Shown here: in pieces, positions 1 to 48,928 of the stretch
How positions within the stretch are numbered: the first letter of the stretch is position 1
Layout: the number at the start of each line of letters is the position of its first letter
Assembly: GCA_964016885.1 (NCBI GenBank)
Contig: OZ024744.1
Span: 108,810,001-108,874,000, forward strand
Direction: 5' to 3'
Source of the DNA: Eledone cirrhosa
Lineage: Eukaryota
DNA: 64,000 nucleotides
Position numbers and translations under genes: made by a program
Notes under the pieces: generated by a model
Database searches by the model: none
What the model was told of the DNA's origin: nothing
What the model saw: only the letters and a program-made list of their open reading frames with translations

Positions 1-3000
1 AACAGTACAGGCTATACAACAGTACAGGCTATACAACAGTACAGGCTATACAACAGTACAAGCTATACAACAGTACAGGCTATACAACATTAGAGCTATA
101 CAACAGTACAAGCTATACAACAGTACAGGCTATACAACAGTACAAGCTATACAACAGTACAGGCTATACAACAGTACAGACTATACAACAATACAGGCTA
201 TACAACAGTACAGGCTATACAACAGTACAGGCTATACAACAGTACAGGCTATATAACAGTACAGGCTATACAACAGTACAGGCTATACAACAGTACAGGC
301 TATACAACAGTACAGGCTATACAACAGTACAGGCTATACAACTCTACAGGCTATACAACAGTACAAGCTATACAACAGTACAGGCTATACAACAGTACAG
401 GCTATACAACAGTACAGTCTATACAACAGTACAAGCTATACAACAGTACAAGCTATACAACAGTACAAGCTATACAACAGTACAGGCTATACAACAGTAG
501 AGCTATACAACAGTACAGGCTATACAACAGTACAGGCTATACAACAGTACAGGCTATACAACAGTACAAGGTATACAACAGTACAGGCTATACAACAGTA
601 CAAGCTATACAACAGTACAGGCTATACAACAGTACAGGCTATACAACAGTACAGGCTATACAACAGTACAAGCTATACAACAGTACAAGCTATACAACAG
701 TACAGGCTATACAACAGTAGAGCTATACAACAGTACAAGCTATACAACAGTACAGGCTATACAACAGTACAGGCTATACAACAGTACAAGCTATACAACA
801 GTACAAGCTATACAACAGTACAGGCTATACAACAGTACAGGCTATACAACAGTACAAGCTATACAACAGTACAAGCTATACAACAGTACAGGCTATACAA
901 CAGTACAGACTATACAACAATACAGGCTATACAACAGTACAGGCTATACAACAGTACAGGCTATACAACAGTACAAGCTATACAACAGTACAGGCTATTC
1001 AACAGTACAGGCTATACAACAATACAGGCTATACAACAGTACAGGCTATACAACAGTACAAGGTATACAACAGTACAGGCTATACAACAGTACAAACTAT
1101 ACAACAGTACAGGCTATACAACAATACAGGCTATACAACAGTACAGGCTATACAACAGTAGAGCTATACAACAGTACAGGCTATACAACAGTACAGGCTA
1201 TACAACAGTAGAGCTATACAATAGTACAGGCTATACAACAGTACAGGCTATACAACAGTAGAGCTATACAACAGTACCAGCTATACAACAGTACAAGCTA
1301 TACAACAGTACAGGCTATACAACAGTACAGGCTATACAACAGTACAAGCTATACAACAGTACAGCTATACAACAGTACAGCTATACAACAGTACAGGCTA
1401 TACAACAGTACAAGCTCTACAACAGTACGAGCTATACAACAGTACAGGCTATACAACAGTACAGGCTATACAACAGTACAGGCTATACGACAGTACAAGC
1501 TATACAACAGTACAGTCTATACAACAGTACAAGCTATACAACACTACAGGCTATACAACAGTACAAGCTATACAACAGTACAAGCTATACAACAGTACAG
1601 GCTATACAACAGTACAAGCTATACAACAGTACAAGGTATACAACAGTACAGGCTATACAACAGTACAAGCTATACAACAGTACAGGCTATACAACAGTAC
1701 AAGCTATACAACAGTACAGGCTATACAACAGTACAGGCTATACAACAGTACAAGCTATACAACAGTACAAGCTATACAACAGTACAGGCTATACAACAGT
1801 ACAGGCTATACAACAGTACAAGCTATACAACAGTACAAGCTATACAACAGTACAGGCTATACAACAGTACAAACTATACAACAGTACAAGCTATACAACA
1901 GTACAGGCTATACAACAGTACAGGCTATACAACAGTACAGGCTATACAACAATACAGGCTATACAACAGTACAGGCTATACAACAGTACAGGCTATACAA
2001 CAGTACAGGCTATACAACAGTACAGGCTATACAACAGTACAGGCTATACAACAGTACAGGCTATACAACAGTACAGGCTATACAACAGTACAATTATACA
2101 ACAGTACAGGCTATACAACAGTACAGGCTATACAACAGTACAGGCTATACAACAGTACCGGCTATACAACAGTACAAGCTATACAACAGTACAAGTTATA
2201 CAACAGTACAGGCTATACAACAGTACAAGCTATACAACAGGACAGGCTATACAACAGTACAAGCTATACAACAGTACAGGCTATACAACAGTACAGGCTA
2301 TACAACAGTACAGGCTATACAACAGTACAGGCTATACAACAGTACAGGCTATACAACAGTACAAGCTATGCAACAGTACAAGCTATACAACAGTACAGGC
2401 TATACAACAGTACAGGCTATACAACAGTACAAGCTATACAACAGTACAGGCTATACAACAGTACAGGCTATACAACAGTACAGGCTATACAACAGTACAG
2501 GCTATACAACAGTACCGGCTATACAACAGTACAAGCTATACAACAGTACAAGTTATACAACAGTACAGGCTATACAACAGTACAAGCTATACAACAGGAC
2601 AGGCTATATAACAGTACAAGCTATACAACAGTACAGGCTATACAACAGTACAGGCTATACAACAGTACAGGCTATACAACAGTATAGGCTATACAACAGT
2701 ACAGGCTATACAACAGTACAGGCTATACAACAGTACAGGCTATACAACAGTACAGGCTATACAACAGTACAGGCTATAGAACAGTACAGGCTATACAACA
2801 GTACAGGCTATACAACAGTACAAGCTATACAACAGTACAGGCTATACAACAGTAGAGCTATACAACAGTACAGGCTATACAACAGTACAGGCTATACAAC
2901 AGTACAGGCTATACAACAGTACAGGCTATACAACAGTACAGGCTATACAACAGTACAGGCTATACAACAGTACAGGCTATACAACAGTACAGGCTATACA

Positions 3001-5976
3001 ACAGTACAGGCTATACAACAGTACAGGCTATACAACAGTACAGGCTATACAACTGTACAGGCTATACAACAGTACAGGCTATACAACAGTACAGTCTATA
3101 CAACAGTACAGGCTATACAACAGTAGAGCTATACAACAGCACAGGCTATACAACAGTACAGTCTATACAACAGTACAGGCTATACAACAGTACAGGCTAT
3201 ACAACAATACAGGCTATACAACAGTACAGGCTATACAACAGTACAAGGTATACAACAGTACAGGCTATACAACAGTACAAGCTATACAACAGTACAGGCT
3301 ATACAACAGTACAGGCTATACAACAATACAGGCTATACAACAGTACAGGCTATACAACAGTACAGGCTATACAACAATACAGGCTATACAACAGTACAGG
3401 CTATACAACAGTACAAGCTATACAACAGTACAGGCTATACAACAATACAGGCTATACAACAGTACAGGCTATACAACAGTACAGGCTATACAACAGTACA
3501 GGCTATACAACAGTACAGGCTATACAACAGTACAAGCTATACAACAGTACAGGCTATACAACAATACAGGCTATACAACAGTACAGGCTATACAACAGTA
3601 CAGGCTATACAACAGTACAGGCTATACAACAGTACAAGCTATACAACAGTACAGGCTATACAACAGTAGAGCTATACAACAGTACAAGCTATACAACAGT
3701 ACAGGCTATACAACAGTACAAGCTATACAACAGTACAGGCTATACAACAGTACAGACTATACAACAATACAGGCTATACAACAGTACAGGCTATACAACA
3801 GTACAGGCTATATAACAGTACAGGCTATACAACAGTACAGGCTATACAACAGTACAGGCTGTACAACAGTACAGGCTATACAACAGTACAGGCTATACAA
3901 CACTACAGGCTATACAACAGTACAAGCTATACAACAGTACAGGCTATACAACAGTACAGGCTATACAACAGTACAGGCTATACAACAGTACAAGCTATAC
4001 AACAGTACAAGCTATACAACAGTACAGGCTATACAACAGTACAGGCTATACAACAGTACAGGCTATACAACAGTACAAGGTATACAACAGTACAGGCTAT
4101 ACAACAGTACAAGCTATACAACAGTACAGGCTATACAACAGTACAGGCTATACAACAGTACAGGCTATACAACAGTACAAGCTATACAACAGTACAAGCT
4201 ATACAACAGTACAGGCTATACAACAGTAGAGCTATACAACAGTACAAGCTATACAACAGTACAGGCTATACAACAGTACAGGCTATACAACAGTACAAGC
4301 TATACAACAGTACAAGCTATACAACAGTACAGGCTATACAACAGTACAGGCTATACAACAGTACAAGCTATACAACAGTACAAGCTATACAACAGTACAG
4401 GCTATACAACAGTACAGACTATACAACAATACAGGCTATACAACAGTACAGGCTATACAACAGTACAGGCTATACAACAGTACAAGCTATACAACAGTAC
4501 AAGCTATACAACAATACAGGCTATACAACAGTACAGGCTATACAACAGTACAGGCTATACAACAGTACAGGCTATACAACAGTACAGGCTATACAACAGT
4601 ACAGGCTATACAACAGTACAAGCTATACAACAGTACAGGCTATACAACAGTACAGGCTATACAACAGTACAGGCTATACAACAGTACAGGCTATACAACA
4701 GTACAGGCTATACAACAGTATAAGCTATACAACAGTACAAGCTATACAACAGTACAGGCTATACAACAGTACAGGCTATACAACAATACAGGCTATACAA
4801 CAGTACAGGCTATACAACAGTACAGGCTATACAACAGTACAGGCTATACAACAGTACAGGCTATACAACAGTACAGGCTATACAACAGTACAAGCTATAC
4901 AACAGTACAAGCTATACAACAGTACAGGCTATACAACAGTACAGGCTATACAACAATACAGGCTATACAACAGTACAGGCTATACAACAGTACAGGCTAT
5001 ACAACAGTACAGGCTATACAACAGTACAGGCTATACAACAGTACAGGTTATACAACAATACAGGCTATACAACAGTACAGGCTATACAACAATACAGGCT
5101 ATACAACAGTACAGGCTATACAACAGTACAGCCTATACAACAATACAGGCTATACAACAGTACAGGCTATACAACAGTACAGGCTATACAACAGTACAGG
5201 CTATACAACAGTACAGGCTATACAACAATACAGGCTATACAACAGTACAGGCTATACAACAGTACAAGCTATACAACAGTACAGGCTATACAACAATACA
5301 GGCTATACAACAGTACAGGCTATACAACAGTACAAGCTATACAACAGTACAGGCTATACAACAATACAGGCTATACAGCAGTACAGGCTATACAACATTA
5401 CAGGCTATACAACAGTACAGGCTATACAACAGTACAAGCTATACAACAGTACAAGCTATACAACAGTACAGGCTATACAACAGTACAGGCTATACAACAG
5501 TACAAGCTATATAACAGTACAGGCTATACAACAGTACAGGCTATACAACAGTACAGGCTATACAACAGTACAAGCTATATAACAGTACAGGCTATACAAC
5601 AGTACAAGCTATACAACAGTACAGGCTATACAACAGTACAGGCTATACAACAGTACAGGCTATACAACAGTACAAGCTATACAACAGTACAGGCTATACA
5701 ACAGTACAAGGTATACAACAGTACAGGCTATACAACAGTACAAGCTATACAACAGTACAGGCTATACAACAGTACAGGCTATACAACAGTACAGGCTATA
5801 CAACAGTACAAGGTATACAACAGTACAGGCTATACAACAGTACAAGCTATACAACAGTACAGGCTATACAACAGTACAGGCTATACAACAGTACAGGCTA
5901 TACAACAGTAGAGCTATACAACAGTTCAGGCTATACAACAGTACAGGCTATACAACAGTACAGGCTATACAACAAT
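1..5976. repeat. 17-bp tandem satellite (AACAGTACAGGCTATAC)n, ~350 units, runs off the window start
   Basis: Direct reading. The 17-aa periodic ORF at 2368-3126 reflects the 17-bp unit read across frames. Main variant is CAGG/CAAG. Confidence 0.98.
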
Positions 5977-12152: not shown

Positions 12153-12312
12153 GAATATTAGATATATGAAAGTTAGATAAACAGACAGACAGATACATAG
12201 ATAGATAGATATATTTCTTTATTTGCCACAGGGGCGTACAAACATGGGACATTACAAGACGTGACGGCGGGGGTTTTACATAAAAATAACTTTAACATTA
12301 ATAAATAACATT

Positions 12313-12417
12313 AAACTATAATAAAATAAACTATAATAAAATAAACTATAATAAAATAAACTATAATAAAATAAACTATAATAAAATAAACTATAATAAA
12401 ATAAACTATAATAAAAT
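12313..12417. repeat. 15-bp tandem repeat (AAACTATAATAAAAT)x7 inside the 3' UTR of copy A
   Basis: Direct reading. Not expanded in sister copy D (~47030-47060). Confidence 0.9.
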
Positions 12418-12547
12418 AACAATTGAAATCCCCAGTAGGGGGGACGTTACTGCAGAGTTGTTTTACACCCCGTAGATAGAACAACCCTCAACACCAGGAA
12501 CACGTTTTGTAGGTGTTCCTGTCTTCCCTCTGTTTATCTTCCTCAAC

Positions 12548-15500
12548 CTACAGGTTTATATACAGAGAAGGCCCATTCACTCGGGCGATTTTTGCCACAT
12601 TCACCCACCTTTCAGCGAATTTACTGGGGTGTAGCACCTCTCTCTCCACTCTCACCTTCCTTCTGAAGTGATATTTAAAGAAGGTGATAAGGTGTTGTCC
12701 GGAGAGAAAGGTGTTTGCCCTCAGTCCTTTTAACCTCGTCCACCATATTACCTCTTTCGTCATAGTCCCCAGACAGAGGAAAGCCGCCTCTCCTTCGTTC
12801 TTAAATGAAGGCGGCGGGGTGATCCTCCCGATGGACTCGACTGACAACCGGATGCGTCCTACACGTGACAGCAGCTGTTCGACATAATTCCACAGGTCGG
12901 TCACCCCTGGGCACTGAACAATTGCGTGCAGAACGGTTTCGATGTCCTGCTCGCATCTTGGACAGGTCCTTTTGGCAGGATCTCTGCCAGAGCGTCCGTG
13001 CCTGTAGATTTTGTCTCGAACTGGTAGAGCTCCTCGGTAGCACTGCCAGGCCAGAGACCTCTGGAAGTTGTCCATAGGCCCTGGACGGAAAGTCCTCCCG
13101 AACAGACTGGTCAGTTCGTCCTCCTCGAGAACGTCGTCGCACTTATCCTCCACTAATCCCCTATAGAATGTCGAAGTGGAGTCTCCGCTGATTGCCGTTT
13201 CCGCTTGGTAGAAGGCTGTGAGCGCCTGTAGGCACTCAAGGTGCCAGGCACCCATTTTCGGTCTTCGCTTGACCCAGGACTGCAGCTCTGTTAATGAGAC
13301 GAGTTGTGGAAGAACTCGTCTCACAAACGACAGCCACACCGGTTCACCGGTCAGGAATACCTGGAGATGGCGTAGCCTTAGCGCATGTTTTCGCATCATC
13401 AGCCACGGCATGCCCAGCCCTCCGTTAGAAGGGTGTTGACAGCAGATGGATCTCCTCACCAATGGAGCCTGTTTCTTCCAGAGGAACTTGAAGAGTAAGC
13501 GTTCCATTTTGGTAAGGTATTCGCGGGGGCAAGGCACGACTATCAAGCGGTAGTAGATGACGGAAGCTATGTAAGTGTTCGCCAACTCCGCTCGACCTTT
13601 CAAGGAGAGTTTGCACTCAGCCCACTTCTGGGTGAGTGCAAACACCTTTGCTGTGACCTCGTTCCAGTTCTTGTCCACCTGGAGGTCTGGACCGAACCAG
13701 ACCCCGAGCAATTTCACCGGTCCTTCCGTCCAGCGTCCAACGACACTGTCGGAATGCATGGGTTTGCCTCTCCATGTGCCGAGTTGCAAACCGACAGACT
13801 TGTTTGGGTTTAGTCTTGCTCGTGTCAACGTTTCGTATTCCTGTAATAGGTTGCCGATTACCCTGATTTCCGAGGTTTTCGACACCATTACGGTTATGTC
13901 GTCAGCATAGGCTGACGCTGCTTTCCGCAGTTCTGGTTCGATCGGGATGCCATGCAACAGCTCCAACTTCCGCAGTAACGACTCGAGAGTCAGTACATAC
14001 AGAATGGAGGAGAGAGGGCATCCCTGATAGATGGAACGTATGATTTGGAATGCCTCTGATAGGTAGCCATTCACCTTGACTGCCGAGCAGATGCTGGTGT
14101 GCATGGCAGCGATCAGGCCTCTGAAGATGGGACCGAAGCCGGCCGCCTTGAGAACTGCTTCCAAGTATTGATGGTCGACCCTATCAAATGCCTTAGACTA
14201 AACTAAATTGATCAGAGCCCCACCGAAGCCAGGTATACACCCTACTCTCTCTATGATGTATAGCATGATGTGGAGGTTGTCGTGTATGGACCTGGTCGGG
14301 ATTGCACACGTTTGGGCTTCCCCTACCAGGTTCTCGACGACAAGCGCCAGCCTTGCTGCTAACACCTTGGCCACAATCTTTAACTCTGTGTTAAGCAGAG
14401 TTATGGGCCTGAAATTGCTTATCTCATCCCCCTTGTTCTCATCTTTCTTGATCAACGTTACTACGCATCTGCCTACAGAACTGGGAATCCCCCCGTTCTG
14501 CTGCCAGTTGCAGTATACCGCTTCGGACACACCAGAGAACAAGTCTGGCATGCCTATGTAAAACTCATAGGGTAGACCATCTAAACCGGGTGATTTGCGT
14601 TTCCCGCAGCGGCCTAGGGCATCTTATATTTCGCTCGCTGTGATCGGCCTTTCGCAGCTCTCTGCATCCGTGCTCGAGAGTCGCGGTACGCCGTCGATCT
14701 AAGAGCTGAAGTCCATCACCTCGCTCGATGTACCGCTTTGCCCGAACAGTTGTGCAAAATGCTGCTGGAAGGCCGTGCACATCTGCCTGGATTCAAGTAT
14801 AATGCGTCCATCTTTGTCTTGCAAAGACCGAATTGTGGATTTGTTGCCACTTTTCACCTCTACCACTCGGGCCCAGCTAACAGCTTTGACTCCCTCGTTT
14901 CTTAGAGCACGTGTTCTACTTCTGACAATACAACCTTCGCGTTTCACGTTGAAGAACTGGTCTAGTGCCGTTCTCGCCGCTAACACGTCAGCTGTACTGC
15001 CATTCCTAAGTGCCTCTTCTATTTTAGCTACCAGTTCCTTTTCAGTTTTATTTTTTTCTAAAGCTACTTCCTTGCTAAATGCTATCGATTCTATTTTAAT
15101 TGCTCTCTTGAGAGAGCACCACCACCTGTTGTTGACGATCTCCCCCATCAACTGGCACTTAACTAAGGTGCTAATCCGTTTACTGTAGGCCTTACGCGCC
15201 GGGAGCGACATGTTTAGCTTCCAGTATCCGGGTCTCTGTCGATGTGTTCTATCAAGGTTGACTACGCAGGTGACTAATTTGTGGTCTGAATAGGCAACCA
15301 TGTACATTTGTGGACAGCTTAATGTGTCCTTATCATTGTGCCTAATTAAAAATCTATCTAAATACGATCTAGAAGACCCAGTGCGGTTGCTCCATGTCCA
15401 CAGTGGTGCACTTGGGAAGTCTAGTCGATATCTATTAGCCAGTTGGAATTGGCTGATGAGATTTTTGAGGCTATTACACTCCACTCTATTATCACAAGCT

Positions 15501-15960
15501 CCTACATAGTCCCAACGTGCGCCTAAGATACCATTCCAGTCCCCTGCTAACACTAAGGAGCGAGACGTTCCCAGCAATGGCTCCAGACGCTTGAAGAACT
15601 CTGGTCGCGATGTCATAGTCGGGGCATATACGGCCACCAGTCTGAAAGCTCCACCTTCATTACCATTCACGTCCAAGACCACCAGGCTGCCCTCCGGGTC
15701 CAAATGAATCGTCTGCATTTTGAGATCCAAGTTTTTTCAAAACAGAACAGCAACTCCCCCTCCACCTCCTGACTGAGAGTGAGATGCGTAGATCGCAAAA
15801 TCAACGATCATGGGGTTATCTGCTGCTTGTCGTGAATCCTGGACTCGGTGATGGCTATCACATCTATACAATGTGACCTGAGATCATTTAAAAGCTGGCC
15901 CTGTTTCCAGGACATGCCTAGGCCACGTACATTCAAACATCCAACTTGTATAGTCGCCAT
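12548..15960 (-). pseudogene. ORF2 of copy A: apurinic endonuclease, reverse transcriptase, CCHC (disrupted)
   Basis: APE motifs VYAPT, LAGDWN, SYLDRF, SDH. RT motifs FRPITLLNTELKI, KAFDRVDH, QGCPLS, YADD, LLGV. C-terminal CPRC-x8-H-x4-C. Split into several ORFs by stops and frameshifts. Confidence 0.93.
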
Positions 15961-16000
15961 GTTGGTGAAGAAGAGTTAAGGAGAGAAAAGGCAGGAGCAT

Positions 16001-17330
16001 TTACCTTTTCGTTTCCTGGCGGTCGGGTTGTTCGATCTCCATGTCCAGATTGGGGGTGTTTGGGGAGTGAGGGAATCATTTTAGCAGGACATGGTTAAGG
16101 GGCTTTTGGCAAAGGGGGGGGGGGGGCATATCATGTGGGAAGTTCTCTTTTAAAGTTTCATACTGTAGGGTTGTTACCCTGATAAGTTTGAGGTTTGGGG
16201 GTGGGTCGTTGGTGGGGAAGGTTTTCCCTTCCGTTTGTAATGTGGGGTCTTTTGGACAGTTTCCACCAGTTCTTTGTTTCTTGTTTTTATGTATGTGTAA
16301 TGTGTTTTGTTTTTATGTGTACTGTTTCTGTTTGTAGTTTTCTTTTTGTGGTTGTGGTTTATGATTGTGGTGGTGTGGGTGTTTGTTTTGTTGGTGAAGT
16401 CTTTGGTTGTGATGGTGGTGATTGTGCTGTTGGTGTGTTTGTCGTTTGTGGCGGTGTGTTTATGGGTGGGTTAGGTGTGTGCGTGTTTTCTGTAGATGTT
16501 TTTGTGTCTATTTTGTGTCTTTTTTTGTTTTTTGGATTTTTGGGGTCCCTCTTCATTCTCACTTGGAGATGTAGAGGTTCCCGTGTCTGAGACTTCTGAA
16601 TCAGGGGTAGATGGGAGGGGTATGTTGTGTGGTGGAGTGTTTGTGCAGGTGTTTGTGGAAGTATTTGACAGAGAGGGAGGAGGCAATGGAGGGTTTTTCA
16701 GTGGTCTGTGGTGGTGTGGGAGTGGATGTTTCAGGTTTTTGTGTTGTGTTTGGTTTGGGGTGTTGATGTTGGGGTTTTGGTGTTGGTAATAACACTTTGT
16801 TTGTCCTCGGTTTGTTTAAGAGAGGGCAAAAGGCCTTTAAGTGTGTGGTTTTCCCACACTTATGGCACTGAGGTCTTTTCCCCTCCACTAAAATAGAGAT
16901 GACATCTTCCTCAAGGACGATCCTGTCCGGTATTTTCTCAACTCTCTCTGGCCTCATTTGTACCAGAACCTCGATGCAGGTTCCAAACCAGTTATTCCGG
17001 TCAGTCCTGTCTACAGATAGCAGGGTGTCCTCATCCTTCTTCAGGATGCAGCGTAGGATCCACCATATGTTGACCTCTGCTGGGATCCTGGTTATTTTTA
17101 TTTCGTAGGATCATCTTCCCATGTATGTGGGGAAGAAGTTGTGTTGATCCGTTTTTATTGGGTGAACCGAGTGTTTTTGTGTCAGATTTTCGCTCTTAAA
17201 GAGCATTGGCACACTTCCATACTGTTTAGCTCTTTGGAGGTATGCCACGTCTGGCTTGATATCTTTTAGTGCAGCTTCAATAGTGCTTGTTGGGAGCGTT
17301 ATGGGTTTTTTGGTAATGATGTCAACTGTT
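16001..17330 (-). pseudogene. ORF1 (gag-like) of copy A, truncated and disrupted
   Basis: CHKCGKTTHLKAFC (CX2CX4HX4C) and a P/T-rich tract. Inferred C-terminus MEIEQPDRQETKR* is conserved with copy B. Confidence 0.8.
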
Positions 17331-17578
17331 CTATAGATAGATATATTTCTTTATTTGCCACAAGGGCGCACAAGAAAAGGGGACAATACAAAGACATGCC
17401 GAGGATTTTACATACAGTCGTGTAAAAATATAAAAATAATCAATTACAACAATCGAAATCCCCAATAGGGGGGTGGCGCCACAAATGGGTTGTTTAATAC
17501 CCCGTCGATAGAACAACCATCAACTCCAGGAGCGTGTTGTGCAAGTGCTCCTTTCTTCACTTTGCTCTCTTCTTCAAC

Positions 17579-20500
17579 CTACAGGCTTATAAACAGAGAA
17601 GGCCCAATCACTCGGGCCATTTTCGCTTCATTCACCCACCTTTCAGTAAATTTACTGGGGTGCAGTGCCTCTCTCTCCACTCGTATTCTCCTTCTAAGGT
17701 GATACTTAAAGAAGGGAATCAATTGTTGTCCGGAGAGAAAGGCATCTGTCCTCAGTTCTCTCAATCTCGTCCACCATATAACCTCTTTCTCCATAGCCAC
17801 CGTACAGAGGAAAACCGCCTCTCTTTCGTTTTTGAAAGAGGCTGGCGGTTTGATCCTTACTATGGACTCGGCAGTCAACTGGATTTGTCCCATGCGCAAA
17901 AGCAGTTGTTCTGCATAGTTCCACAGGTCGGTTACGCCCGGGCAGTGTACAATTGCGTGCAGGACTGTTTCAATGTCCTGCGCGCATCTTGGACACGTCC
18001 TCTTGGAAGGATCCCTCCCGAGGCGTCCGTGCCTGTAGATCTTGTCACGAACCGGTAGAGCTCCTCGGTAGCACTGCCAGGTCAGGGACCTCTGGAAGTT
18101 GTCCATAGGTCCCGGGCGGAAGGTCCTACCAAACAGACTGGTGAGCTCATCGTCTTCGACGCCCAGAGTCTCTCCGAGCACGTCGTCGCCCTTGTAACAT
18201 ACAATCTCTCTATAGAATGCGCCCGCATGCCAGAGGACTGTGAGTGCCTGAGCGCATTCAATGTGCCAGGCGCCCATCGTTTTCGGTCTTTTCTTGACCC
18301 AGGACTGCAGCTCCGTCAGCGAGACGAGATGTGGGAAAGCCTGTATCACAACGGTGCTCACACCGGCTGGAGGTCGGTGAGGAATACCTGGAGATGCCGC
18401 AGCCTCAGCACATGTTTGCGCATCATCAGCCACGGCATTCCCAGCCCTCCGTTGGAAGCGTGCTGACATCAGACGGATCTCCTCACCAGCGGAGCCTGCT
18501 TCTTCCACAGAAACTGGAAGAGCATGCGTTCCATCTTGGCGAGGTGTTCACGGGGACAAGGCAAGACAGTCAAGCGGTAGTAAATGACGGACGCTATGAA
18601 AGTGTTCGCCACCTCCGCTCGACCTTTCAAGGACAGTTTGCACTCTGCCCACTTCTGGGTGAGTGCAAACACCTTGGCCGTGACCTCGTTCCAGTTTTTC
18701 TCCACCTGGAGGTCTGGACCGAACCAGACCCCGAGCAATTTCACCGGTCCCTCCGTCCAGCGTCCAACGACGCTGTCGAACGTCATCGGTTTGCCTCTCC
18801 ACGTACCGAGTTGCAAACCGATAGACTTGTCCGGGTTTAGTTTTGCTCCCGTCAGCGTTTCGTATTCTTTCAGTAAGTTGCCGATCACCCCGATTTCCGA
18901 GGTGCTCGTCACCATTACCGTCACGTAAATGTATCGCATGAAGTGGAGGTTGTCGTGTATGGACCTGGTCGGGATTACACACGTTTGCGCTTTCCCTACC
19001 AGGTTCTCGACGACAAGCGCCAACCTCGTCGCTAGGACCTTGGCCAAAATCTTTAACTCTGTGTTGAGCAGAGTTATGGGCCTGAAGTTGTTAATTTCGT
19101 CTCCCTTGTTCTCGTCTTTCCTGATCAGCGTTACTACGCCCTTGCCTGCAGAACTGGGAATTCTCCCGTTCTGCTGCTAATTGCAGTAGACGGCTTCGAG
19201 GACGCCAGAGAACAAGGCCAGCATGCCTATGTAAAACTCATAGGGTAGACCATCTAGACCAGGTGTCTTGCGTTTCCCGCAGCGGCCCAGAGCGTTCCGT
19301 ATCTCAGTGTCCGTGATCGGTCTTTCGCAGAACTCGGCGTCCGTGTTCGAGAAACGCGGCAGGCCGTCGAGTTATGAACTAAAGTCCATTGCCCCGTTCG
19401 GCTCACCGTAGTTCTGCTCAAACAGTCGCGCAAAGTTTTGGTCTTTCAAAGACCGAATCGTGGACTTGTTGCCACTTTTTGCCTCCGCCACTCGGGCCCA
19501 GCTGACAGCTTTCGCTCCTTCGTTTTCTAGAGCACATGTTTTGCTTCTGACCACGCAGCCTTCGTGTTTCGCATCGAAGAACTGGTCCAGTGCCGTTTTC
19601 GACGCTAACACTCTAGCTACGTTGCCACTTCTAAGTGCCTCCTCTACCTTGGCTACTAGTTCTCTTTCTATTCTGTTTTTCTCTAAGGCTAACTCTCTGC
19701 TATGCCCTATCGATTCTATTCTAATTGCTTTCTTGAGAGAGTACCACCATCTATTGTTGACGATGGCTTCCGTTAACTGTTGCTTGACTAGTCTACTTAT
19801 CCGTTCACTGTAAGCTTTACGTGCTGGCAACGACACGTTCAGCTTCCAGTATCCGGGTCCCTGTCTATGTGTTCTATCACGGTTGACTAAGCAGACGACT
19901 AATTTGTGATCTGAATAGGCAACCATGTGCATTCGTGGAGAGCTTAACATCTCCTTGTCCCTTTCTCTAATGAAGAACCTATCTAAATACAATCTAGATG
20001 TCCCGCTGCGGTTTGCCCACGTCCACTGTGGTGCAGTCGGGAAATGCAGTCGATACCTATCGGCCAGTTGGAATTGGCCGATTAAATTTTTGAGGCTGTT
20101 GCATCCCGCTCTGCTGGGACATGCTCCCACATAGTCCCATCGTGCAGCTAGGATACCATTCCAGCCCCCCACTAAAAGTAAGGAGCGAGACGTTCCCAGA
20201 AAAGACTCTAGATGCTTAAAGAAGTCTGGCCGTGATTGCGATTGCCCGGTCGGGGCATAAACGGCCACGAGTCTGAAGGCTCCACCTCCAATACTGTTCA
20301 CGTCTAGGACTACCAGTCTACCCTCCGGGTCCAAGTGTACTTGCTGTACTTCGACGTCCAGGTTCTTCCGAAACATGACAGCCACTCCACCCCCACCTCC
20401 TGGCTGACAGAGAGATGCGTAGATCTCAAAGTCGTCGAAGATGGGGGTTAGTTGCTGCCTGTTGTGGATCCTGGACTCGGTGATGGCTATCACATCCATA

Positions 20501-20592
20501 CCGTGTGACCTAAGGTCGTTTAAAAGTTGGCCCTGTTTCCAGGGCATCCCTAGGCCACTCACATTCACACTTCCAACTCGTAAACTAGCCAT
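17579..20592 (-). pseudogene. ORF2 of copy B (APE-RT-CCHC) lacking the catalytic RT segment
   Basis: Starts MASLRVGSVNVSG with APE motifs. Reads HFMRYIY|VTVMVTS where copy A has about 120 more residues including QGCPLS and YADD. C-terminal CPRCAQDIETVLHAIVHC. Confidence 0.92.
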
Positions 20593-20633
20593 GTTGGTGA
20601 AGAAGAGTTGGAGAAAAAGGACGAAAGGTGCAC

Positions 20634-22468
20634 TTACCTTTTCGTTTCCTGGAGATCGGGTTGTACAATCTCCATTTGGGTGCTGGATGGGGTGTTGGGT
20701 GGGGTGGGGAAACATTTTAACAGGACGCGGTTGATGAGTTTCTGGCAGGGGTTGCCCACGTCCTGTGAAAATTTATTTTTTATATCATTATAGGTTCCAT
20801 AGAAACCCTTATAAGTTTAAGGTGTGGAGACGATTCTGCCTTGACGAAAGTTTTGCCCTCCGTCTGCACCTTGGGGTTTTGGGAGATGACCTCCATCAAA
20901 CTCTTGTTGTTTGTGTTGATGTATGCGTATTGTTGTTTGTGTTTTTGTTGTGTTGTTTTAGTTTGTTGTCCGTCCGGGAGTTTTCTTTTTATGGTGGGTG
21001 CTTGTGTTTGGGGTGGTATTGGTGTTGGTTTTGCTGGTAGGGGGATGTTTGAATGTGGTGTTGTTTGTGTTGTTGTTTGTGTCTGTGGTTGTGTGTTGGT
21101 GTTGGTGATTGGAGTTTTGGGGGTTTTGTGGTATTTCTTTTTTTGTTTTTTAGATTTCCGCGGTTCTCCTTCTTCTTCACTTAAAGAAGGAGAAGCAGCC
21201 TCATCTGTTGATGAATAATCATCGTCAGGAGTGTGGGGTAGAGGTATGTTGTGTGGTGGTGGTGTTTCGGTGTGTGTGTTTGTGGTAGTGTTTGATGGAG
21301 TGGGATGGGGTGGGACTGTGTTCTTCAGGGCTGTTGTCTCTGTTTTTTCTGTTGGTTGAGTGTCTGTTTGTTTTGGTGTGGTTGCTCGTTTCGTCTGTCG
21401 TTGTACTTGTGGTGGTGGTGGTTGTTTTGGCGTTGGTGTTGGTAATAGTGTTTTTTTTATGATGTTGTTGTTGTGTGTTTGTGGACAAGAGGCTTTTAGG
21501 TGAGCTGTGCTACCACAGCGAAAGCAATGAAATTTTCGTCCTTCTACCGAAATGTTTATTTTGTTGTTATCATCGATGACGACTCTTTCGGGTATTTTGG
21601 AGATTCTCTCCGGCTTCATTTGCAACAGAATCTCCAAATCAGTACCCGCCCACCTTTGCCGAATAGATTTTCGTATCGAAAGAATCATATCAGTTTCTGG
21701 CTCTACGAAGCCAGCCAAGATCCACCAGATGTTAATGTTTGGGGGTATATTTTTTATTTTTATTTTTTGTGTCCTTTTTCCCATGAATGTAGGGAAAAAG
21801 GTGAATGCTTTTGACACCATTGGTGTCACAGAATGTTTTGGGGCGAGTGCTTCGCTTTAAAACAGTACGGAAACATTTCCGTACTGTTTTCCTCGCTGGA
21901 GAAAATCGATATTTGCTAGAATTTCCTTGAAAGTAGCTTCTATATCTGCTTGGCTAACAAATGTCGGCTTTCTTGTGGAATTTGACACAGTCCTAAAGGT
22001 GACTGATCTGTGAATTGTGTCTTCCTTTATTTCAAGGGGTGAGTTAATTCTAAACCCACCTTTTTCTTCGAAAGTTACAAATTTTCTCCCTTGCTGGAGC
22101 ATATCTCTTGCATTGGAGATATCAAGATTTATAAAATCTTGTTTTTTGTTCACTGTTTCAGCGAAAGACATTTTCTTTTTTTGCGTGGTGTTGCTGTTGT
22201 TGTTGTTGTTGTTATCGTTGTTAGCCTCGGTGTTGGAAATCTCAGTTCCTTGACGAGGTGAAACATTATGTGTGAGTTAGTGTTATTTTTCTCCGCTTCG
22301 ACGGTAGAAATTGTACAATTTTTGAGTGGTAACATTTTTTCCTCTTTGTTGACAGTCGTATCTATGGCGACGTCCATAGAGAGAGAAAGGGGCAGATATA
22401 ACGTTAATATCTGCCCCTTTCTCTCTCTTTTCTCTACTGACGTTCTCCAGCGTTCTTGTCTTGTTCAT
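20634..22468 (-). pseudogene. ORF1 (gag-like) of copy B, frameshifted
   Basis: Pieces 22283-22468, 21857-22171 and 20780-21829; CFRCGSTAHLKASC knuckle; inferred end MEIVQPDLQETKR*. Start codon uncertain. Confidence 0.78.
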
Positions 22469-22705
22469 GTTATTTAGTTTGTAAAATTTGAAATTTTAAA
22501 ACAATTTTTAAAATAAAATGTTCGCCCCTAAAGGGGCGAAAATGGGATTACCACCCAGCTGACAATTCAACTTGGGGGTTAATCTACAAAATAATATGTT
22601 TTTTCAAACAATTTGTTCTGTTTTCGTATATAAATTTACAAAAAATCTTACCGGCGGTGTTTCACGCATCAGACAGAAAGAGAGATAGATAGATAGGTAG
22701 ATAGC

Positions 22706-22917: not shown

Positions 22918-22938
22918 ATAGATAGATAGATAGATAGA

Positions 22939-23420
22939 TATATTTCTTTATTAGCCACAAGGGCGCACAAGAAAAGGGGACAATACAAAGATATGCCGGG
23001 GATTTTACATACTGTCGTGTAAAAATATAAAACAAACAATTATAACAATCAGGAGGAGGCACCACAAATGTGTTGTTTAATACCCCGTCGATAGAACAAG
23101 CTTCAACTTCAGGAGCGTGTTGTGCAAGTGCTCCTTTCTTCCTTTTGTTCTCTTCTTCAACCTACAGGCTTATATACAGAGAAGGCCCAATCACTCGGGC
23201 CATTTTTGCCACATTCACCCACCTTTTAGTAAATTTACTGGAGTGCAGTGTCTCTCTCTCTCTTTCTCTCCACTCTGATTCTCCTTCTAAAGTGGTACCT
23301 AAAGAAGGGAATGAGTTGTTGTTCCGGAGAGAAAGGCATCTGTCCTCAGTCCTCTCAATCTCGTCCACCATATAACCCCTTTCACCATAGCCACTATACA
23401 GGGGAAAACCGCCTCTCTTT
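22939..23420 (-). mobile_element. Tx1 copy C, 5'-truncated (ORF2 end plus 3' UTR)
   Basis: Encodes ...RWVNVAKMARVIGPSLYISL*. The 5' break abuts AGATAGATAG at 23421-23430. Confidence 0.92.
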
Positions 23421-28340: not shown

Positions 28341-28385
28341 TAAATGTTCTAAACTCTTTGATTAAATGTTCTAAACTCTCTTTGA
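28313..28385. repeat. Three tandem copies of ~23-25-bp TGATTAAATGTTCTAAACTCTCTT
   Basis: Direct reading. Abuts the first unit of the 32-bp satellite. Confidence 0.9.
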
Positions 28386-31300
28386 CATTGTCGTCTGCTC
28401 AAGAAGCAATATAAAGACATTGTCTTCTGCTCAAGAAGCAATATAAAGACATTGTCGTCTGCTCAAGAAGCAGTATAAAGACATTGTCGTCTGCTCAAGA
28501 AGCAGTATAAAGACATTGTCGTCTGCTCAAGAAGCAGTATAAAGACATTGTCTTCTGCTCAAGAAGCAGTATAAAGACATTGTCTTCTGCTCAAGAAGCA
28601 GTATAAAGACATTGTCTTCTGCTCAAGAAGCAATATAAAGACATTGTCGTCTGCTCAAGAAGCAATATAAAGACATTGTCGTCTGCTCAAGAAGCAGTAT
28701 AAAGACATTGTCTTCTGCTCAAGAAGCAATATAAAGACATTGTCTTCTGCTCAAGAAGCAGTATCAAGACATTATCTTCTGCTCAAGAAGCAATATAAAG
28801 ACATTGTCTTCTGCTCAAGAAGCAGTATAAAGACATTGTCGTCTGCTCAAGAAGCAGTATAAAGACATTGTCTTCTGCTCAAGAAGCAGTATAAAGACAT
28901 TGTCGTCTGCTCAAGAAGCAGTATAAAGACATTGTCTTCTGCTCAAGAAGCAGTATCAAGACATTATCTTCTGCTCAAGAAGCAGTATAAAGACATTGTC
29001 TTCTGCTCAAGAAGCAATATAAAGACATTGTCTTCTGCTCAAGAAGCAGTATAAAGACATTGTCTTCTACTCAAGAAGCAATATAAAGACATTGTCTTCT
29101 GCTCAAGAAGCAGTATAAAGACATTGTCGTCTGCTCAAGAAGCAGTATAAAGACATTGTCTTCTGCTCAAGAAGCAATATAAAGACATTGTCTTCTGCTC
29201 AAGAAGCAGTATCAAGACATTATCTTCTGCTCAAGAAGCAGTATAAAGACATTGTCTTCTGCTCAAGAAGCAGTATAAAGACATTGTCGTCTGCTCAAGA
29301 AGCAGTATAAAGACATTGTCTTCTGCTCAAGAAGCAGTATAAAGACATTATCTTCTGCTCAAGAAGCAGTATAAAGACATTGTCTTCTGCTCAAGAAGCA
29401 ATATAAAGACATTGTCTTCTACTCAAGAAGCAATATAAAGACATTGTCTTCTGCTCAAGAAGCAGTATAAAGACATTGTCGTCTGCTCAAGAAGCAGTAT
29501 AAAGACATTGTCTTCTGCTCAAGAAGCAATATAAAGACATTGTCTTCTGCTCAAGAAGCAGTATCAAGACATTATCTTCTGCTCAAGAAGCAGTATAAAG
29601 ACATTGTCTTCTGCTCAAGAAGCAGTATAAAGACATTATCTTCTGCTCAAGAAGCAGTATAAAGACATTGTCGTCTGCTCAAGAAGCAGTATAAAGACAT
29701 TATCTTCTGCTCAAGAAGCAGTATAAAGACATTGTCGTCTGCTCAAGAAGCAGTATAAAGACATTGTCTTCTGCTCAAGAAGCAATATAAAGACATTGTC
29801 GGCTGCTCAAGAAGCAGTATAAAGACATTGTCTTCTGCTCAAGAAGCAGTATAAAGACATTGTCGTCTGCTCAAGAAGCAATATAAAGACATTGTCGTCT
29901 GCTCAAGAAGCAGTATAAAAACATTATCTTCTGCTCAAGAAGCAGTATAAAGACATTATCTTCTGCTCAAGAAGCAGTATAAAGACATTGTCGTCTGCTC
30001 AAGAAGCAGTATAAAGACATTGTCGTCTGCACAAAAAGCAGTATAAAGACATTGTCTTCTGCTCAAGAAGCAGTATAAAGACATTGTATTCTGCTCAAGA
30101 AGCAGTATAAAGACATTGTCGTCTGCTCAAGAAGCAGTATAAAGACATTATCTTCTGCTCAAGAAGCAATATAAAGACATTGTCTTCTGCTCAAGAAGCA
30201 GTATAAAGACATTGTCGTCTGCTCAAGAAGCAGTATAAAGACATTGTCTTCTGCTCAAGAAGCAATATAAAGACATTGTCGTCTGCTCAAGAAGCAGTAT
30301 AAAGACATTGTCTTCTGCTCAAGAAGCAGTATAAAGACATTGTCTTCTGCTCAAGAAGCAATAGAAAGACATTGTCGTCTGCTCAAGAAGCAGTATAAAG
30401 ACATTATCTTCTGCTCAAGAAGCAGTATAAAGACATTATCTTCTGCTCAAGAAGAAGTATAAATACATTGTCGTCTGCTCAAGAAGCAATATAAAGACAT
30501 TGTCTTCTGCTCAAGAAGCAATATAAAGACATTGTCTTCTGCTCAAGAAGCAGTATAAAGACATTATCTTCTGCTCAAGAAGCAATATAAAGACATTGTC
30601 TTCTGCTCAAGAAGCAATATAAAGACATTGTCTTCTGCTCAAGAAGCAATATAAAGACATTGTCTTCTGCTCAAGAAGCAGTATAAAGACATTATCTTCT
30701 GCTCAAGAAGCAGTATAAAGACATTATCGTCTGCTCAAGAAGCAGTATAAAGACATTGTCTTCTGCTCAAGAAGCAGTATAAAGACATTGTCGTCTGCTC
30801 AAGAAGCAGTATAAAGACATTGTCGTCTGCTCAAGAAGCAGTATAAAGACATTGTCTTCTGCTCAAGAAGCAATATAAAGACACTGTTGTCTGCTCAAGA
30901 AGCAGTATAAAGACATTGTCTTCTGCTCAAGAAGCAATATAAAGACATTGTCGGCTGCTCAAGAAGCAGTATAAAGACATTGTCGTCTGCTCAAGAAGCA
31001 GTATAAAGACATTGTCTTCTGCTCAAGAAGCAATATAAAGACACTGTTGTCTGCTCAAGAAGCAGTATAAAGACATTGTCTTCTGCTCAAGAAGCAGTAT
31101 AAAGACATTGTCGTCTGCTCAAGAAGCAATATAAAGACATTGTCGTCTGCTCAAGAAGCAGTATAAAAACATTATCTTCTGCTCAAAAAGCAGTATAAAG
31201 ACATTATCTTCTGCTCAAGAAGCAGTATAAAGACATTGTCGTCTGCTCAAGAAGCAGTATAAAGACATTGTCGTCTGCTCAAAAAGCAGTATAAAGACAT

Positions 31301-46300: not shown

Positions 46301-46340
46301 AAAGACATTGTCTTCTGCTCAAGAATCAGTATAAAGACAT
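28384..46340. repeat. 32-bp tandem satellite (GACATTGTCTTCTGCTCAAGAAGCAGTATAAA)n, 561 units
   Basis: First GACAT at 28384 and last at 46336; the difference of 17952 equals 561 x 32. Variation seen is substitutions only. Confidence 0.99.
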
Positions 46341-46768: not shown

Positions 46769-46930
46769 ACATCTCGCGAAATGTTAAGGGAAGTTCAGGT
46801 ATATTTAGCACACCTTGAATATAAATTGAGAGCAACGATTGATAAATATTTACAAAATAGGTAAAAAAAATGAATAAATAAAATAGAAGAAACAGACTGA
46901 CAGTAGGCAGATTGACAGGGGACAGATAGA

Positions 46931-47211
46931 TATGTTTCCTTATTTGCCACAAGGGTGTACATTACAAGAAATGGGACATTACAAGACGTGACGGCAGGGT
47001 TTTACATGAAATCGTATAAACTTTAACATTAATAAATTAAAATAAACTATATATTAGAAATTAACAATTGAAATCCCCAATAGGGGGTGGGGGCGTTACT
47101 TCAGGGTTGTTTTACACCCCGTGGATAGAAGAACCCTCAACACCAGGAGCACGTTTTGTAGGTGTTCCCGTCTTCCCTCTTGTTGTCTTGCTCAACCTAC
47201 AGGTTTATATA
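46931..47211 (-). mobile_element. Tx1 copy D (3' UTR, copy-A subfamily)
   Basis: Colinear with 12211-12560. Preceded on the plus strand by GACAGATAGA. Confidence 0.9.
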
Positions 47212-47419: not shown

Positions 47420-47432
47420 TAGATAGATAGAT

Positions 47433-47669
47433 AAATTCCTTTATTAGCCACAAGGGCACAAAAGAAGGGGACAAATACAAATGGGGACTTTACATACAGG
47501 TATATGAAAATAAAACTATTAATAAAATAACAAATAACAATTGAAATCCCCAATGGGGGGAGGCGTTACACAGGGGTTGTACACACCCCGAAAAAAATGT
47601 ACAACCCTCATCTCCAGGAGCACCAAGAGTGAGTACTCCCTTCCTCTCTTCCTCTTTTTCCTCAACAGG

Positions 47670-47675
<6 letters not shown>
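47433..47675 (-). mobile_element. Tx1 copy F (3' UTR)
   Basis: Same motif order as the other copies. Flanked by TAGA repeats and a TA/TAGA tract. Confidence 0.85.
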
Positions 47676-47703
<28 letters not shown>

Positions 47704-47727
47704 TATATGAATAAATAGATAAATAGA

Positions 47728-48427
47728 TATATTTCTTTATTAGCCACAGGGGCACAAAAGAAGGGGACAAATACAAAGGGGGAAGTTTACATACAATAAA
47801 AACGTGTAAAATGTTATCACAAATGGAATTTAAAAGTTAGTCGATTTTCCCCAATAGAGGGAGACAGTTTATATGGGTAACACATACCCCCGAAAAAAAA
47901 TGTGCAACCCTCATCTCCAGGAGTACGAAGAGTTTGTACTCCTTTCCTCTCCTCCTCCTTTTCCTCAACCTACAGGCTGATATAGAGAGAAGGCCCATTC
48001 ACTCGGGCCATTCTCGCCGCTTTCACCCACCTTTCATAAAACTTGCTGGGGTACAGCACCTCTCTCTCCATCCTGATTCTTCTTCCAAAGTGGTATTTGA
48101 AAAAAAGAATCAGTTGTTGGCCGGAGAGAAAGGTGTCTGACCTCAGCCCTTTCAACCTTGTCCACCATACAACCTCTTTCGCCATAGCTATCACACAAAG
48201 GAAAACCGCCTCTCCTTCGTTTTTGAAGGAGGGTGGCGGTTTGATCATGACAATGGACTCGGTGGTCAACTGGATTGGTCCCACCCGCGACAATAGTCGT
48301 TCTACATAGCCCCACAGGTCAGTGACGCCCGGGCAGTGTATGAATGCGTGCGCGACGGTTTCTTCGTCTCGCACGCACCTCGGACAGATCTTTTTTGCAG
48401 GGTCCCTGCCCGGGCGCCCATGTCTGT
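47728..48427 (-). mobile_element. Tx1 copy G (ORF2 CCHC end plus 3' UTR)
   Basis: YRHGRPGRDPAKKICPRCVRDEETVAHAFIHC...GPSLYISL*. 5' break adjoins a long (ATAG)n at 48429-48527. Confidence 0.92.
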
Positions 48428-48428
48428 A

Positions 48429-48528
<100 letters not shown>

Positions 48529-48587
48529 GCGGACATGTAAGACAGGTAGACAGACAGACAGGTAGACAGACAGACAGATAGACAGAT

Positions 48588-48928
48588 ACATTTCTTTATT
48601 AGCCACAAGGACGCACAAGAAAAGGTGACAATACAAAGACATGCCGGGGATTTTACATACAGTTGTGTAAAAAATATAAAAAAACAAACAATTACAACAA
48701 TGGAAATCCCCAATAGGGGGGAGGCGTCACAAATGGGTTGTTTAATACCCCGTCGATAGAACAACCCTCAACTCCAGGAGCGTGTTGTGCAAGTGCTCCT
48801 TTCTTCCTTTTGCTCTCTTCCTCAACCTACAGGCTTATATACAGAGAAGGCCCAATCACTCGGGCCATTTTCGCTTCATTCACCCACCTTTCAGTAAATT
48901 TACTGGGGTGCAGTGCCTCTCTCTCCAC
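48588..48928 (-). mobile_element. Tx1 copy H (copy-B subfamily 3' end)
   Basis: Near-identical to 17341-17680. 5' break adjoins AGATAGACAGATA. Confidence 0.92.

What the first reader, a model, noticed from the sequence alone, without database searches (positions are those of the whole stretch)
12474..16038. End of ORF1 is complementary to the 3' UTR ~3.5 kb away: possible long-range RNA switch
Seen: in copy A the sense strand just before the inferred ORF1 stop (16013-16038) reads AGATCGAACAACCC-GACCGCCAGGAA, and the reverse complement of its 3' UTR (12474-12500) reads AGATAGAACAACCCTCAACACCAGGAA, about 22 of 27 positions matching. In copy B the pair is TGTACAACCCGATCTCCAGGA (20647-20667) and GAACAACCATCAACTCCAGGA (17511-17531); the position before CCAGGA changes on both sides (G.U in A, U-A in B). 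The copy F UTR (47598-47619) matches the B ORF1 end even better. The same UTR bases also form local hairpins, so the two folds would be mutually exclusive. Inference: RNA looping that brings the 3' UTR to the ORF1 stop and ~40-nt spacer could govern ORF2 translation or RNP assembly, by analogy with long-distance pairing in plus-strand RNA viruses.
Basis: partly seen in the sequence, partly recalled or inferred. Interest (0 to 1): 0.75.

Follow-up and report, generated by a model that had tools for sequence, protein, structure and literature searches.

The report
LINE RNA duplex enclosing ORF2
In a family of jumping genes (LINEs) in this animal genome, about 90 letters before the reverse-transcriptase gene are complementary to about 90 letters after it, 3.4 kb away, and the two have changed together across subfamilies, so the RNA is predicted to fold into a long stem that likely limits when the enzyme is made; no RNA data were available to prove it.

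Summary
The match is real and about three times longer than reported. The element is a (GATA)n-targeting, Tx1-like LINE. Its last 13 ORF1 codons, ORF1 stop, spacer and ORF2 start codon are complementary to the ORF2 stop codon and the next ~90 nt, so the predicted stem encloses ORF2 exactly. It is present in 9 of 9 subfamilies (duplex -69 to -93 kcal/mol for the median copy, 0 of 300 shuffles as good in each; ORF2 proteins 72-85% identical between the five sampled). True double-sided changes exist, and the same UTR bases also keep covarying local hairpins. Most likely role: gating ORF2 translation (0.45); rival: masking a splice donor kept at the ORF1 end (0.27). Whole-RNA folding gave the stem in only 3 of 6 copies, one young subfamily has lost part of it, and there is no RNA evidence. 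The scan noted this pairing before on other DNA of this genome (e1-8673698).

The parts
12213..17330 (-). LINE copy A (subfamily A), 5'-truncated inside ORF1, broken ORF2; ends approximate
12548..15960 (-). ORF2 of copy A (AP endonuclease, reverse transcriptase, zf-RVT), with stops and frame breaks
15954..16051 (-). 5' arm of the predicted duplex, copy A: last ~13 ORF1 codons, ORF1 stop, 40-nt pyrimidine-rich spacer, ORF2 start codon context
12463..12556 (-). 3' arm of the predicted duplex, copy A: ORF2 stop codon context and first ~90 nt of the 3' UTR
16025..16033 (-). ORF1 strand of helix 1 (9-bp core), copy A
12479..12487 (-). UTR strand of helix 1; pairs either with ORF1 or with its local partner
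12455..12463 (-). Local hairpin partner of the helix-1 UTR strand (competing fold)
15999..16007 (-). Splice-donor-like motif over the ORF1 stop (stop at 16001-16003); the window copy carries a private change at +5
16040..16042 (-). Conserved in-frame ATG 13 codons before the ORF1 stop, at the outer end of the duplex
17343..22673 (-). LINE copy B (subfamily B), both ends present, internal deletions in ORF2 (span 3011 against ~3440), flanked by (GATA)n; ends approximate
20586..20684 (-). 5' arm, copy B (ORF1 stop 20634-20636, donor-like motif 20632-20640, 41-nt spacer, ORF2 ATG 20590-20592)
17490..17588 (-). 3' arm, copy B (ORF2 stop 17579-17581)
22930..23420 (-). 5'-truncated 3' fragment, B-like UTR
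46924..47211 (-). 5'-truncated 3' UTR fragment, A-like
47423..47675 (-).
47719..48428 (-). 5'-truncated fragment, subfamily G (ORF2 end and UTR)
48578..48928 (-). 5'-truncated 3' fragment, B-like UTR

Best explanation
The two flanks of ORF2 in this Tx1-like LINE family are complementary over about 90 nt and covary across subfamilies, so the full-length RNA is predicted to form a long stem that encloses ORF2, and this stem likely keeps ORF2 translation low by hiding the spacer and the ORF2 start codon from ribosomes that finish ORF1. Shown: complementarity, its position, its conservation and double-sided changes. Inferred: that the stem forms in cells; that a ribosome reading the last 13 ORF1 codons opens the outer half while the spacer and start codon stay paired, so reinitiation is occasional; and that a ribosome finishing ORF2 opens the inner half and lets the 3' UTR refold into its two local hairpins, where new ORF2 protein would bind its own RNA. 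I put selection on an RNA duplex at about 0.85 and this particular function at 0.45.
For: Duplex in 9 of 9 subfamilies, z -4.0 to -8.8, 0 of 300 dinucleotide shuffles as stable in each. In 6 of 6 intact copies the best partner of each arm in the element is the other arm. Joint fold beats the two local folds by 17-44 kcal/mol in 10 of 10 groups. Helix 1 has three double-sided changes between A/B and the rest, two of which change ORF1 residues. The basal helix pairs the ORF2 start context with the ORF2 stop context at 8-11 of 12 positions in 9 of 10 groups, with a C-G to A-U change inside both coding ends in the sister pair I/H. Cognate arms pair better than swapped ones: 14 of 362,880 permutations by energy, 1 of 300 by alignment folding. 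Sense RNA is more stable than antisense in 8 of 9 subfamilies. ORF1 strand, UTR strand and the UTR's local partner change together. Subfamily H has AUA in place of AUG in 10 of 10 copies, overlapped by its ORF1 stop, with 2 of 10 ORF2 frames open, which fits termination-reinitiation, the mode reported for L1 and SART1 (PMC5972666, passages).
Against: No RNA data bear on it. Whole-RNA (4 kb) minimum-energy folds held the stem in 3 of 6 copies (A, B, J); forcing it cost 1.2 kcal/mol in G and 8.3 in I; H had none. Young subfamily H has lost helix 1 (5 of 9 pairs) and part of the ORF1 arm yet spread recently, and in H and I another window of the element pairs almost as well. The cognate arm was the single best partner in only 2 of 9 rows and 2 of 9 columns; on a joint alignment the cognate excess was small (Watson-Crick 4,921 of 200,000 permutations; with G.U 15,255 of 200,000; 26 positive, 4 zero, 15 negative of 45 pairs), and G.U against A.C was only 129 to 104. 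Subfamilies are related, so these counts are not independent; F, M and K rest on 1, 1 and 2 copies. At least 5 of 81 full-span copies join arms of different subfamilies. The donor-like motif is not explained by this model.
Confidence: 0.45

Rival explanations
1. The duplex is selected but acts on splicing: it masks (or times) a splice donor at the ORF1 end and an acceptor at the ORF2 stop, deciding between full-length RNA and an ORF1-only message.
For: A donor-like AG|GURRGU lies at the ORF1 end in 9 of 9 subfamilies (99 of 114 ORF1 ends match RGGTRRGT exactly). It stays when the stop codon changes (UAA, UGA, UAG) or moves away (G, H), and while its pairing partner drifts. 5-8 of its 9 positions are paired in the stem in 10 of 10 groups. 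The ORF2 end reads CTG TAG GT in 145 of 165 cases. Earlier notes e1-8668365 and e1-8673189 raised the same idea.
Against: The acceptor-like context is also explained by the basal helix. Two exact-pattern searches for ORF2-less genomic copies gave 0 matches (A/B; F/G/I/J/K/M-type), though such RNA need not be copied back. Read by eye, the ORF1 end after such a splice would differ between subfamilies (immediate stop in some, tens of codons in others).
Confidence: 0.27
2. The duplex is selected for RNP assembly or reverse transcription: it compacts the RNA, keeps the 3' end near ORF1/ORF2 ribosomes for cis preference, or marks full-length RNA, with no effect on ORF2 amount.
For: Geometry joins the 3' UTR to the ORF1 end and only long RNAs have both arms. 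The UTR's local hairpins covary on their own (3 double-sided pairs). Ty1 needs long-range CYC5/CYC3 pairing (PMC7969010, passages).
Against: The stem ends right at the ORF2 start and stop codons and constrains coding letters there, which points to translation or splicing. Ty1 cyclization belongs to an LTR life cycle (recalled).
Confidence: 0.13
3. No RNA function: an old inverted duplication or purine/pyrimidine bias, kept similar by DNA-level conversion or template switching between the arms.
For: Spacer is pyrimidine-rich and the UTR start purine-rich; non-cognate arms pair nearly as well; antisense duplexes are also strong (-64 to -76); no A-to-G excess in the arms (18 of 3,351 A sites against 208 of 56,973 in ORF2).
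Against: Shuffles keep composition and never reach the observed energy. Fourfold-degenerate sites differ by 0.29-0.63 substitutions per site between five subfamilies, while pairing persists with double-sided changes. A relic predicts no cognate excess. In the helix-1 core G.U pairs outnumber A.C mismatches 15 to 5, with 4 of the 5 in H (counted); DNA conversion would not favour G.U.
Confidence: 0.12

Closest known systems
Tx1-clade LINEs that target microsatellites (Kibi, Koshi, crocodilian Tx1; PMC4494074, passages seen)
   Same: Two ORFs, AP endonuclease plus RT plus zf-RVT, insertion into a simple repeat (110 of 122 3' ends run into a TCTATCT-like repeat, 0 of 122 into poly(A)).
   Different: Target is (GATA)n/(TATC)n, not (TC)n or (TTC)n. 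No pairing of ORF2 flanks turned up in my searches. Clade placement was not tested by a tree with named references.
Long-distance pairing in tombusvirus readthrough and barley yellow dwarf virus frameshifting (PMC3542737, passages seen)
   Same: A 3'-terminal element pairs over about 3.5 kb with the region at the end of the first ORF, upstream of the polymerase; proposed there to link translation and replication.
   Different: Here about 90 nt pair, not a short contact; ORF2 has its own start and no fixed frame to ORF1, so no readthrough or frameshift.
Termination-reinitiation in mammalian L1 and silkworm SART1 (PMC5972666, passages seen)
   Same: Bicistronic non-LTR RNA, short spacer or overlap; subfamily H has a stop overlapping a non-AUG start.
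   Different: SART1 uses a structure downstream of an overlapping stop-start, L1 a 63-nt spacer with no defined structure; neither passage mentions the 3' UTR.
Ty1 CYC5/CYC3 genome cyclization (PMC7969010, passages seen)
   Same: Long-range pairing inside a retrotransposon RNA.
   Different: LTR element, joins the two genome ends; here the pairing brackets one ORF in a non-LTR element.
Copia-type splicing to a gag-only RNA (named in note e1-8668365; otherwise recalled, paper not read)
   Same: Donor near the end of the structural gene; splicing would remove the polymerase.
   Different: No spliced product seen here; both putative splice sites lie in or at the predicted stem.

Membership tests
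L1/Tx1-type non-LTR retrotransposon | ORF2 with N-terminal AP endonuclease and RT, C-terminal zinc motif | tested here: met
   Pfam Exo_endo_phos, RVT_1, zf-RVT (the last just under its cut-off); intact ORF2 1145-1148 aa; best PDB match human L1 ORF2p E 3e-54 against R2 3e-22.
L1/Tx1-type non-LTR retrotransposon | Separate ORF1 upstream, 5'-truncated copies, no LTR | tested here: met
   Open ORF1 frames of 597 and 624 aa in L158 and L092; truncated 3' fragments in the window.
Tx1 clade | Target-sequence preference | tested here: met
   110 of 122 located 3' ends (of 165 ORF2 ends) abut a TCTATCT-like repeat.
Tx1 clade | RT phylogeny with named Tx1 families | not tested
Viral long-distance recoding (readthrough or -1 frameshift) | Distal 3' element pairs near the end of the first ORF | tested here: met
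   Predicted duplex in 9 of 9 subfamilies; prediction only.
Viral long-distance recoding (readthrough or -1 frameshift) | Fixed frame relation giving an ORF1-ORF2 fusion | tested here: not met
   Stop-to-start distance 40 (A, K, F), 41 (B), 43 (M), 33 (G, I), 24 (J), -4 (H).
Termination-reinitiation (L1, SART1) | ORF1 stop close to ORF2 start; tolerance of non-AUG start | tested here: inconclusive
   Distance met; AUA start in 10 of 10 H copies, first in-frame Met at residue 35, but H might be mobilised in trans.
Termination-reinitiation (L1, SART1) | ORF2 synthesis depends on ORF1 translation | not testable with these tools
   Needs a reporter assay.
Copia-type splicing to a structural-gene-only RNA | Conserved donor | tested here: met
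   99 of 114 ORF1 ends.
Copia-type splicing to a structural-gene-only RNA | Spliced product exists | tested here: inconclusive
   0 genomic ORF2-less copies in two pattern searches; no RNA to test.
Ty1-type cyclization | Pairing of the two RNA ends in an LTR element | tested here: not met
   5' arm lies about 2.0-2.2 kb inside the element; no LTR structure.

The most novel reading that the evidence does not exclude
A non-LTR retrotransposon uses a two-state RNA switch: a ~90-nt stem that joins the ORF2 start codon to the ORF2 stop codon, hides the spacer and a U1 site, and flips to local 3' UTR hairpins once ORF2 has been translated, so that one structure sets the ORF2:ORF1 ratio, protects ORF2 from being spliced out and hands the RNA to its own reverse transcriptase.
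Probability: 0.3. Interest if true: 0.85.

Novelty: new variant of a known kind. Interest (0 to 1): 0.66.

Why it matters
How L1-type elements make a little ORF2 protein from a two-gene RNA, and how that protein finds its own RNA, are long-standing questions. Here a young, multi-subfamily LINE family with many open ORF2 frames offers a defined structure with natural compensatory variants and a natural partial-loss variant (H), so the question becomes directly testable with a reporter. Long-range pairing of this kind is known from plant viruses and Ty1; my searches found no report for a non-LTR element, within an open-access library only.

Tried and rejected
1. The 3' UTR as a hidden coding exon: frames after the ORF2 stop differ between A and B; dropped. 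2. 3. Readthrough or frameshift: frame not conserved. 4. Genome-fixed A-to-I editing in the arms as a sign of dsRNA: A>G 5.4 per 1000 in the arms against 3.7 in ORF2, T>C 4.9 against 4.0; small counts, no signal. 5. ORF2-less genomic copies: 0 matches in two exact patterns. 6. RNA evidence: no RNA holder listed; the three runs laid are contigs of unknown type from one sample; no ORF1-end-to-UTR joint was among the 15 joints shown in either call, with 291 and 65 not shown; no evidence either way. 7. Other taxa: one metagenome scan gave 3 loci; the one with a whole ORF2 (L171, 32% identical in the RT, AT-rich) shows no flank pairing (-13.6 against shuffle mean -15.4), so the feature is not shown outside this family. 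DNA around the 40%-identical homologues could not be fetched. 8. A joint MAFFT alignment of 5' arms with reversed 3' arms mis-registered the middle helix and gave weak statistics; reported, and anchored registers used as well. Rows dropped: 17 of 98 start-stop pairs outside a 3250-3480 span, then 8 of 81 with mismatched or unclassified arms, leaving 73; 3 more lacked an anchor. R-scape was not available.
Full report
What the element is. The window comes from a 3.0-Gb, AT-rich, microsatellite-rich genome; an octopus is my inference, also made in earlier notes. Positions 12213-22673 hold two head-to-tail LINE copies on the minus strand, with five shorter 3' fragments elsewhere. ORF2 carries AP endonuclease, RT and zf-RVT, is 1145-1148 aa when intact and is closest to human L1 ORF2p among solved structures. 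110 of 122 located 3' ends run into a TCTATCT-like repeat and none into poly(A). This fits the microsatellite-targeting Tx1 group (PMC4494074, passages); a recent Octopus vulgaris annotation lists 13 recently active L1-Tx1 families (PMC13282606, passages). I did not place it by phylogeny.

Checking the observation. Its covariation example does not hold. The G in copy A is private (23 of 24 A-type ends have U), and the A-type UTR has U opposite in 9 of 9 cases. The codon that makes copy B resemble the F UTR is also private (1 of 31).

What is really there. I fetched 140 genome stretches chosen by similarity to seven 5' or 3' queries. They gave 98 start-stop pairs, 81 of full span, 73 with both arms of one subfamily: A 5, B 23, F 1, G 8, H 10, I 11, J 12, K 2, M 1 (subfamily letters are mine, and J was later split in two, giving 10 groups). 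In 9 of 9 subfamilies the 90 nt before the ORF2 start codon form a long interrupted duplex with the ~95 nt from the ORF2 stop codon on. For the median copy it is -69 to -93 kcal/mol against shuffle means of -36 to -49; 0 of 300 shuffles reach it in each. Scanning six intact copies, each arm's best partner is the other arm in 6 of 6, with narrow margins in H and I. The stem runs from a conserved in-frame ATG 13 codons before the ORF1 stop, through the stop and spacer, to the ORF2 start codon, whose context pairs with the ORF2 stop context. ORF2 is thus the loop.

Evidence for selection. Five sampled subfamilies differ by 15-28% in ORF2 protein and 0.29-0.63 substitutions per fourfold site. In helix 1 three columns change on both sides between A/B and the others (G-C to A-U, A-U to U-A, A-U to G-C), and the 9-bp core is complete in A, B, F, G, M and J2, 8 of 9 in K, J and I, 5 of 9 in H. 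These three changes fall on one branch of the ORF2 tree, so they are one episode. In the basal helix the sister subfamilies I and H replace C-G by A-U inside both coding ends. In the middle helix the A-U of A/B/F/G/K appears as G.U in J and G-C in I (read). Cognate combinations beat swapped ones in 14 of 362,880 permutations by duplex energy and 1 of 300 by alignment folding; an unselected relic predicts no such excess. Sense RNA is more stable than antisense in 8 of 9. The helix-1 UTR strand also has a local partner that changes with it (8-9 of 9 pairs in 10 of 10 groups), and a second local hairpin shows three double-sided pairs.

Evidence against or limiting. Matching is at clade level only: the cognate arm is the single best partner in 2 of 9 rows and 2 of 9 columns; a joint alignment gives weak tests (4,921 and 15,255 of 200,000; 26 of 45 pairs positive, 15 negative; G.U 129 to A.C 104), and at least 5 of 81 copies mix arms. 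Folding 4-kb RNAs gave the stem in A, B and J, not in G (1.2 kcal/mol away), I (8.3) or H; such long folds are unreliable both ways. H spread recently with helix 1 decayed. There is no editing footprint, and the one distant LINE I could test lacks the pairing.

Mechanism. ORF2 has its own start, and the stop-to-start distance is 24, 33, 40, 41, 43 or -4 nt, so virus-type readthrough or frameshifting (PMC3542737, passages) is out. Termination-reinitiation, reported for L1 and SART1 (PMC5972666, passages), is the likely route; H supports it, with AUA in 10 of 10 copies, overlapped by the relocated ORF1 stop, and no in-frame Met before residue 35. A stem over the spacer and start codon would then gate reinitiation, and finishing ORF2 would release the UTR into its local hairpins. 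This is inference (0.45). The main rival is splicing control (0.27): a donor-like motif persists at the ORF1 end in 99 of 114 ends, independent of the stop codon and of its pairing partner, and is 5-8 of 9 paired in the stem. No ORF2-less genomic copy was found. The two roles could coexist.

Novelty. Long-range pairing is known in plant viruses and in Ty1 (PMC7969010, passages). Six searches of the open-access library (listings and abstract starts only, apart from the papers named) showed no report for a non-LTR element; subscription papers, Repbase notes and supplements were not seen. The scan noted the same pairing on another piece of this genome (e1-8673698). I had found the long duplex before reading that note; it prompted the start-stop helix test. 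It is not independent support.

Verdict. Real, conserved and larger than reported; function unproven. New variant of a known kind, interest 0.66.

Noticed in passing
L081, L091-L100 (subfamily H), ORF1/ORF2 junction: A young subfamily (40 hits at 97-100% identity) has AUA instead of AUG at the ORF2 start in 10 of 10 copies; a deletion moves the ORF1 stop so that it overlaps this codon; 2 of 10 copies have an open ORF2.
   Followed up: partly
window 22645-22660 (-); L037, L065, L156, L158 5' ends: A second splice-donor-like motif lies 20-35 nt inside the 5' end in window copy B and in 4 of the 9 5' flanks printed; subfamilies F and G also have an acceptor-like pyrimidine run plus CAG just before the ORF2 start.
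   Followed up: no
window 16040-16042 and 20673-20675 (-): An in-frame ATG in strong context, 13 codons before the ORF1 stop, is kept in all subfamilies after a poorly conserved P/T/N-rich stretch; it could be a protein motif or an internal start.
   Followed up: partly
L096, L102, L105-L108: Full-span copies whose 5' and 3' arms belong to different subfamilies (K with F or M, H with a J-like end), suggesting recombination between subfamilies.
   Followed up: partly
window 28384-46340: 18-kb tandem array of a 32-nt unit (reported at periods 64, 96, 160; 94% matches).
   Followed up: no
window 1-5974: Tandem array of a 17-nt unit, 352 copies, 94% matches.
   Followed up: no
window 22378-22428: A near-perfect 51-nt palindrome near the start of ORF1 in copy B.
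   Followed up: no
G000: Many B-type copies keep an open ORF2 frame of about 1172 codons, so the family looks recently active.
   Followed up: partly
L035-L038: Four B-type copies end in the same non-(GATA)n flank start, three of them sharing a longer flank, which hints at a second target or 3' transduction.
   Followed up: no
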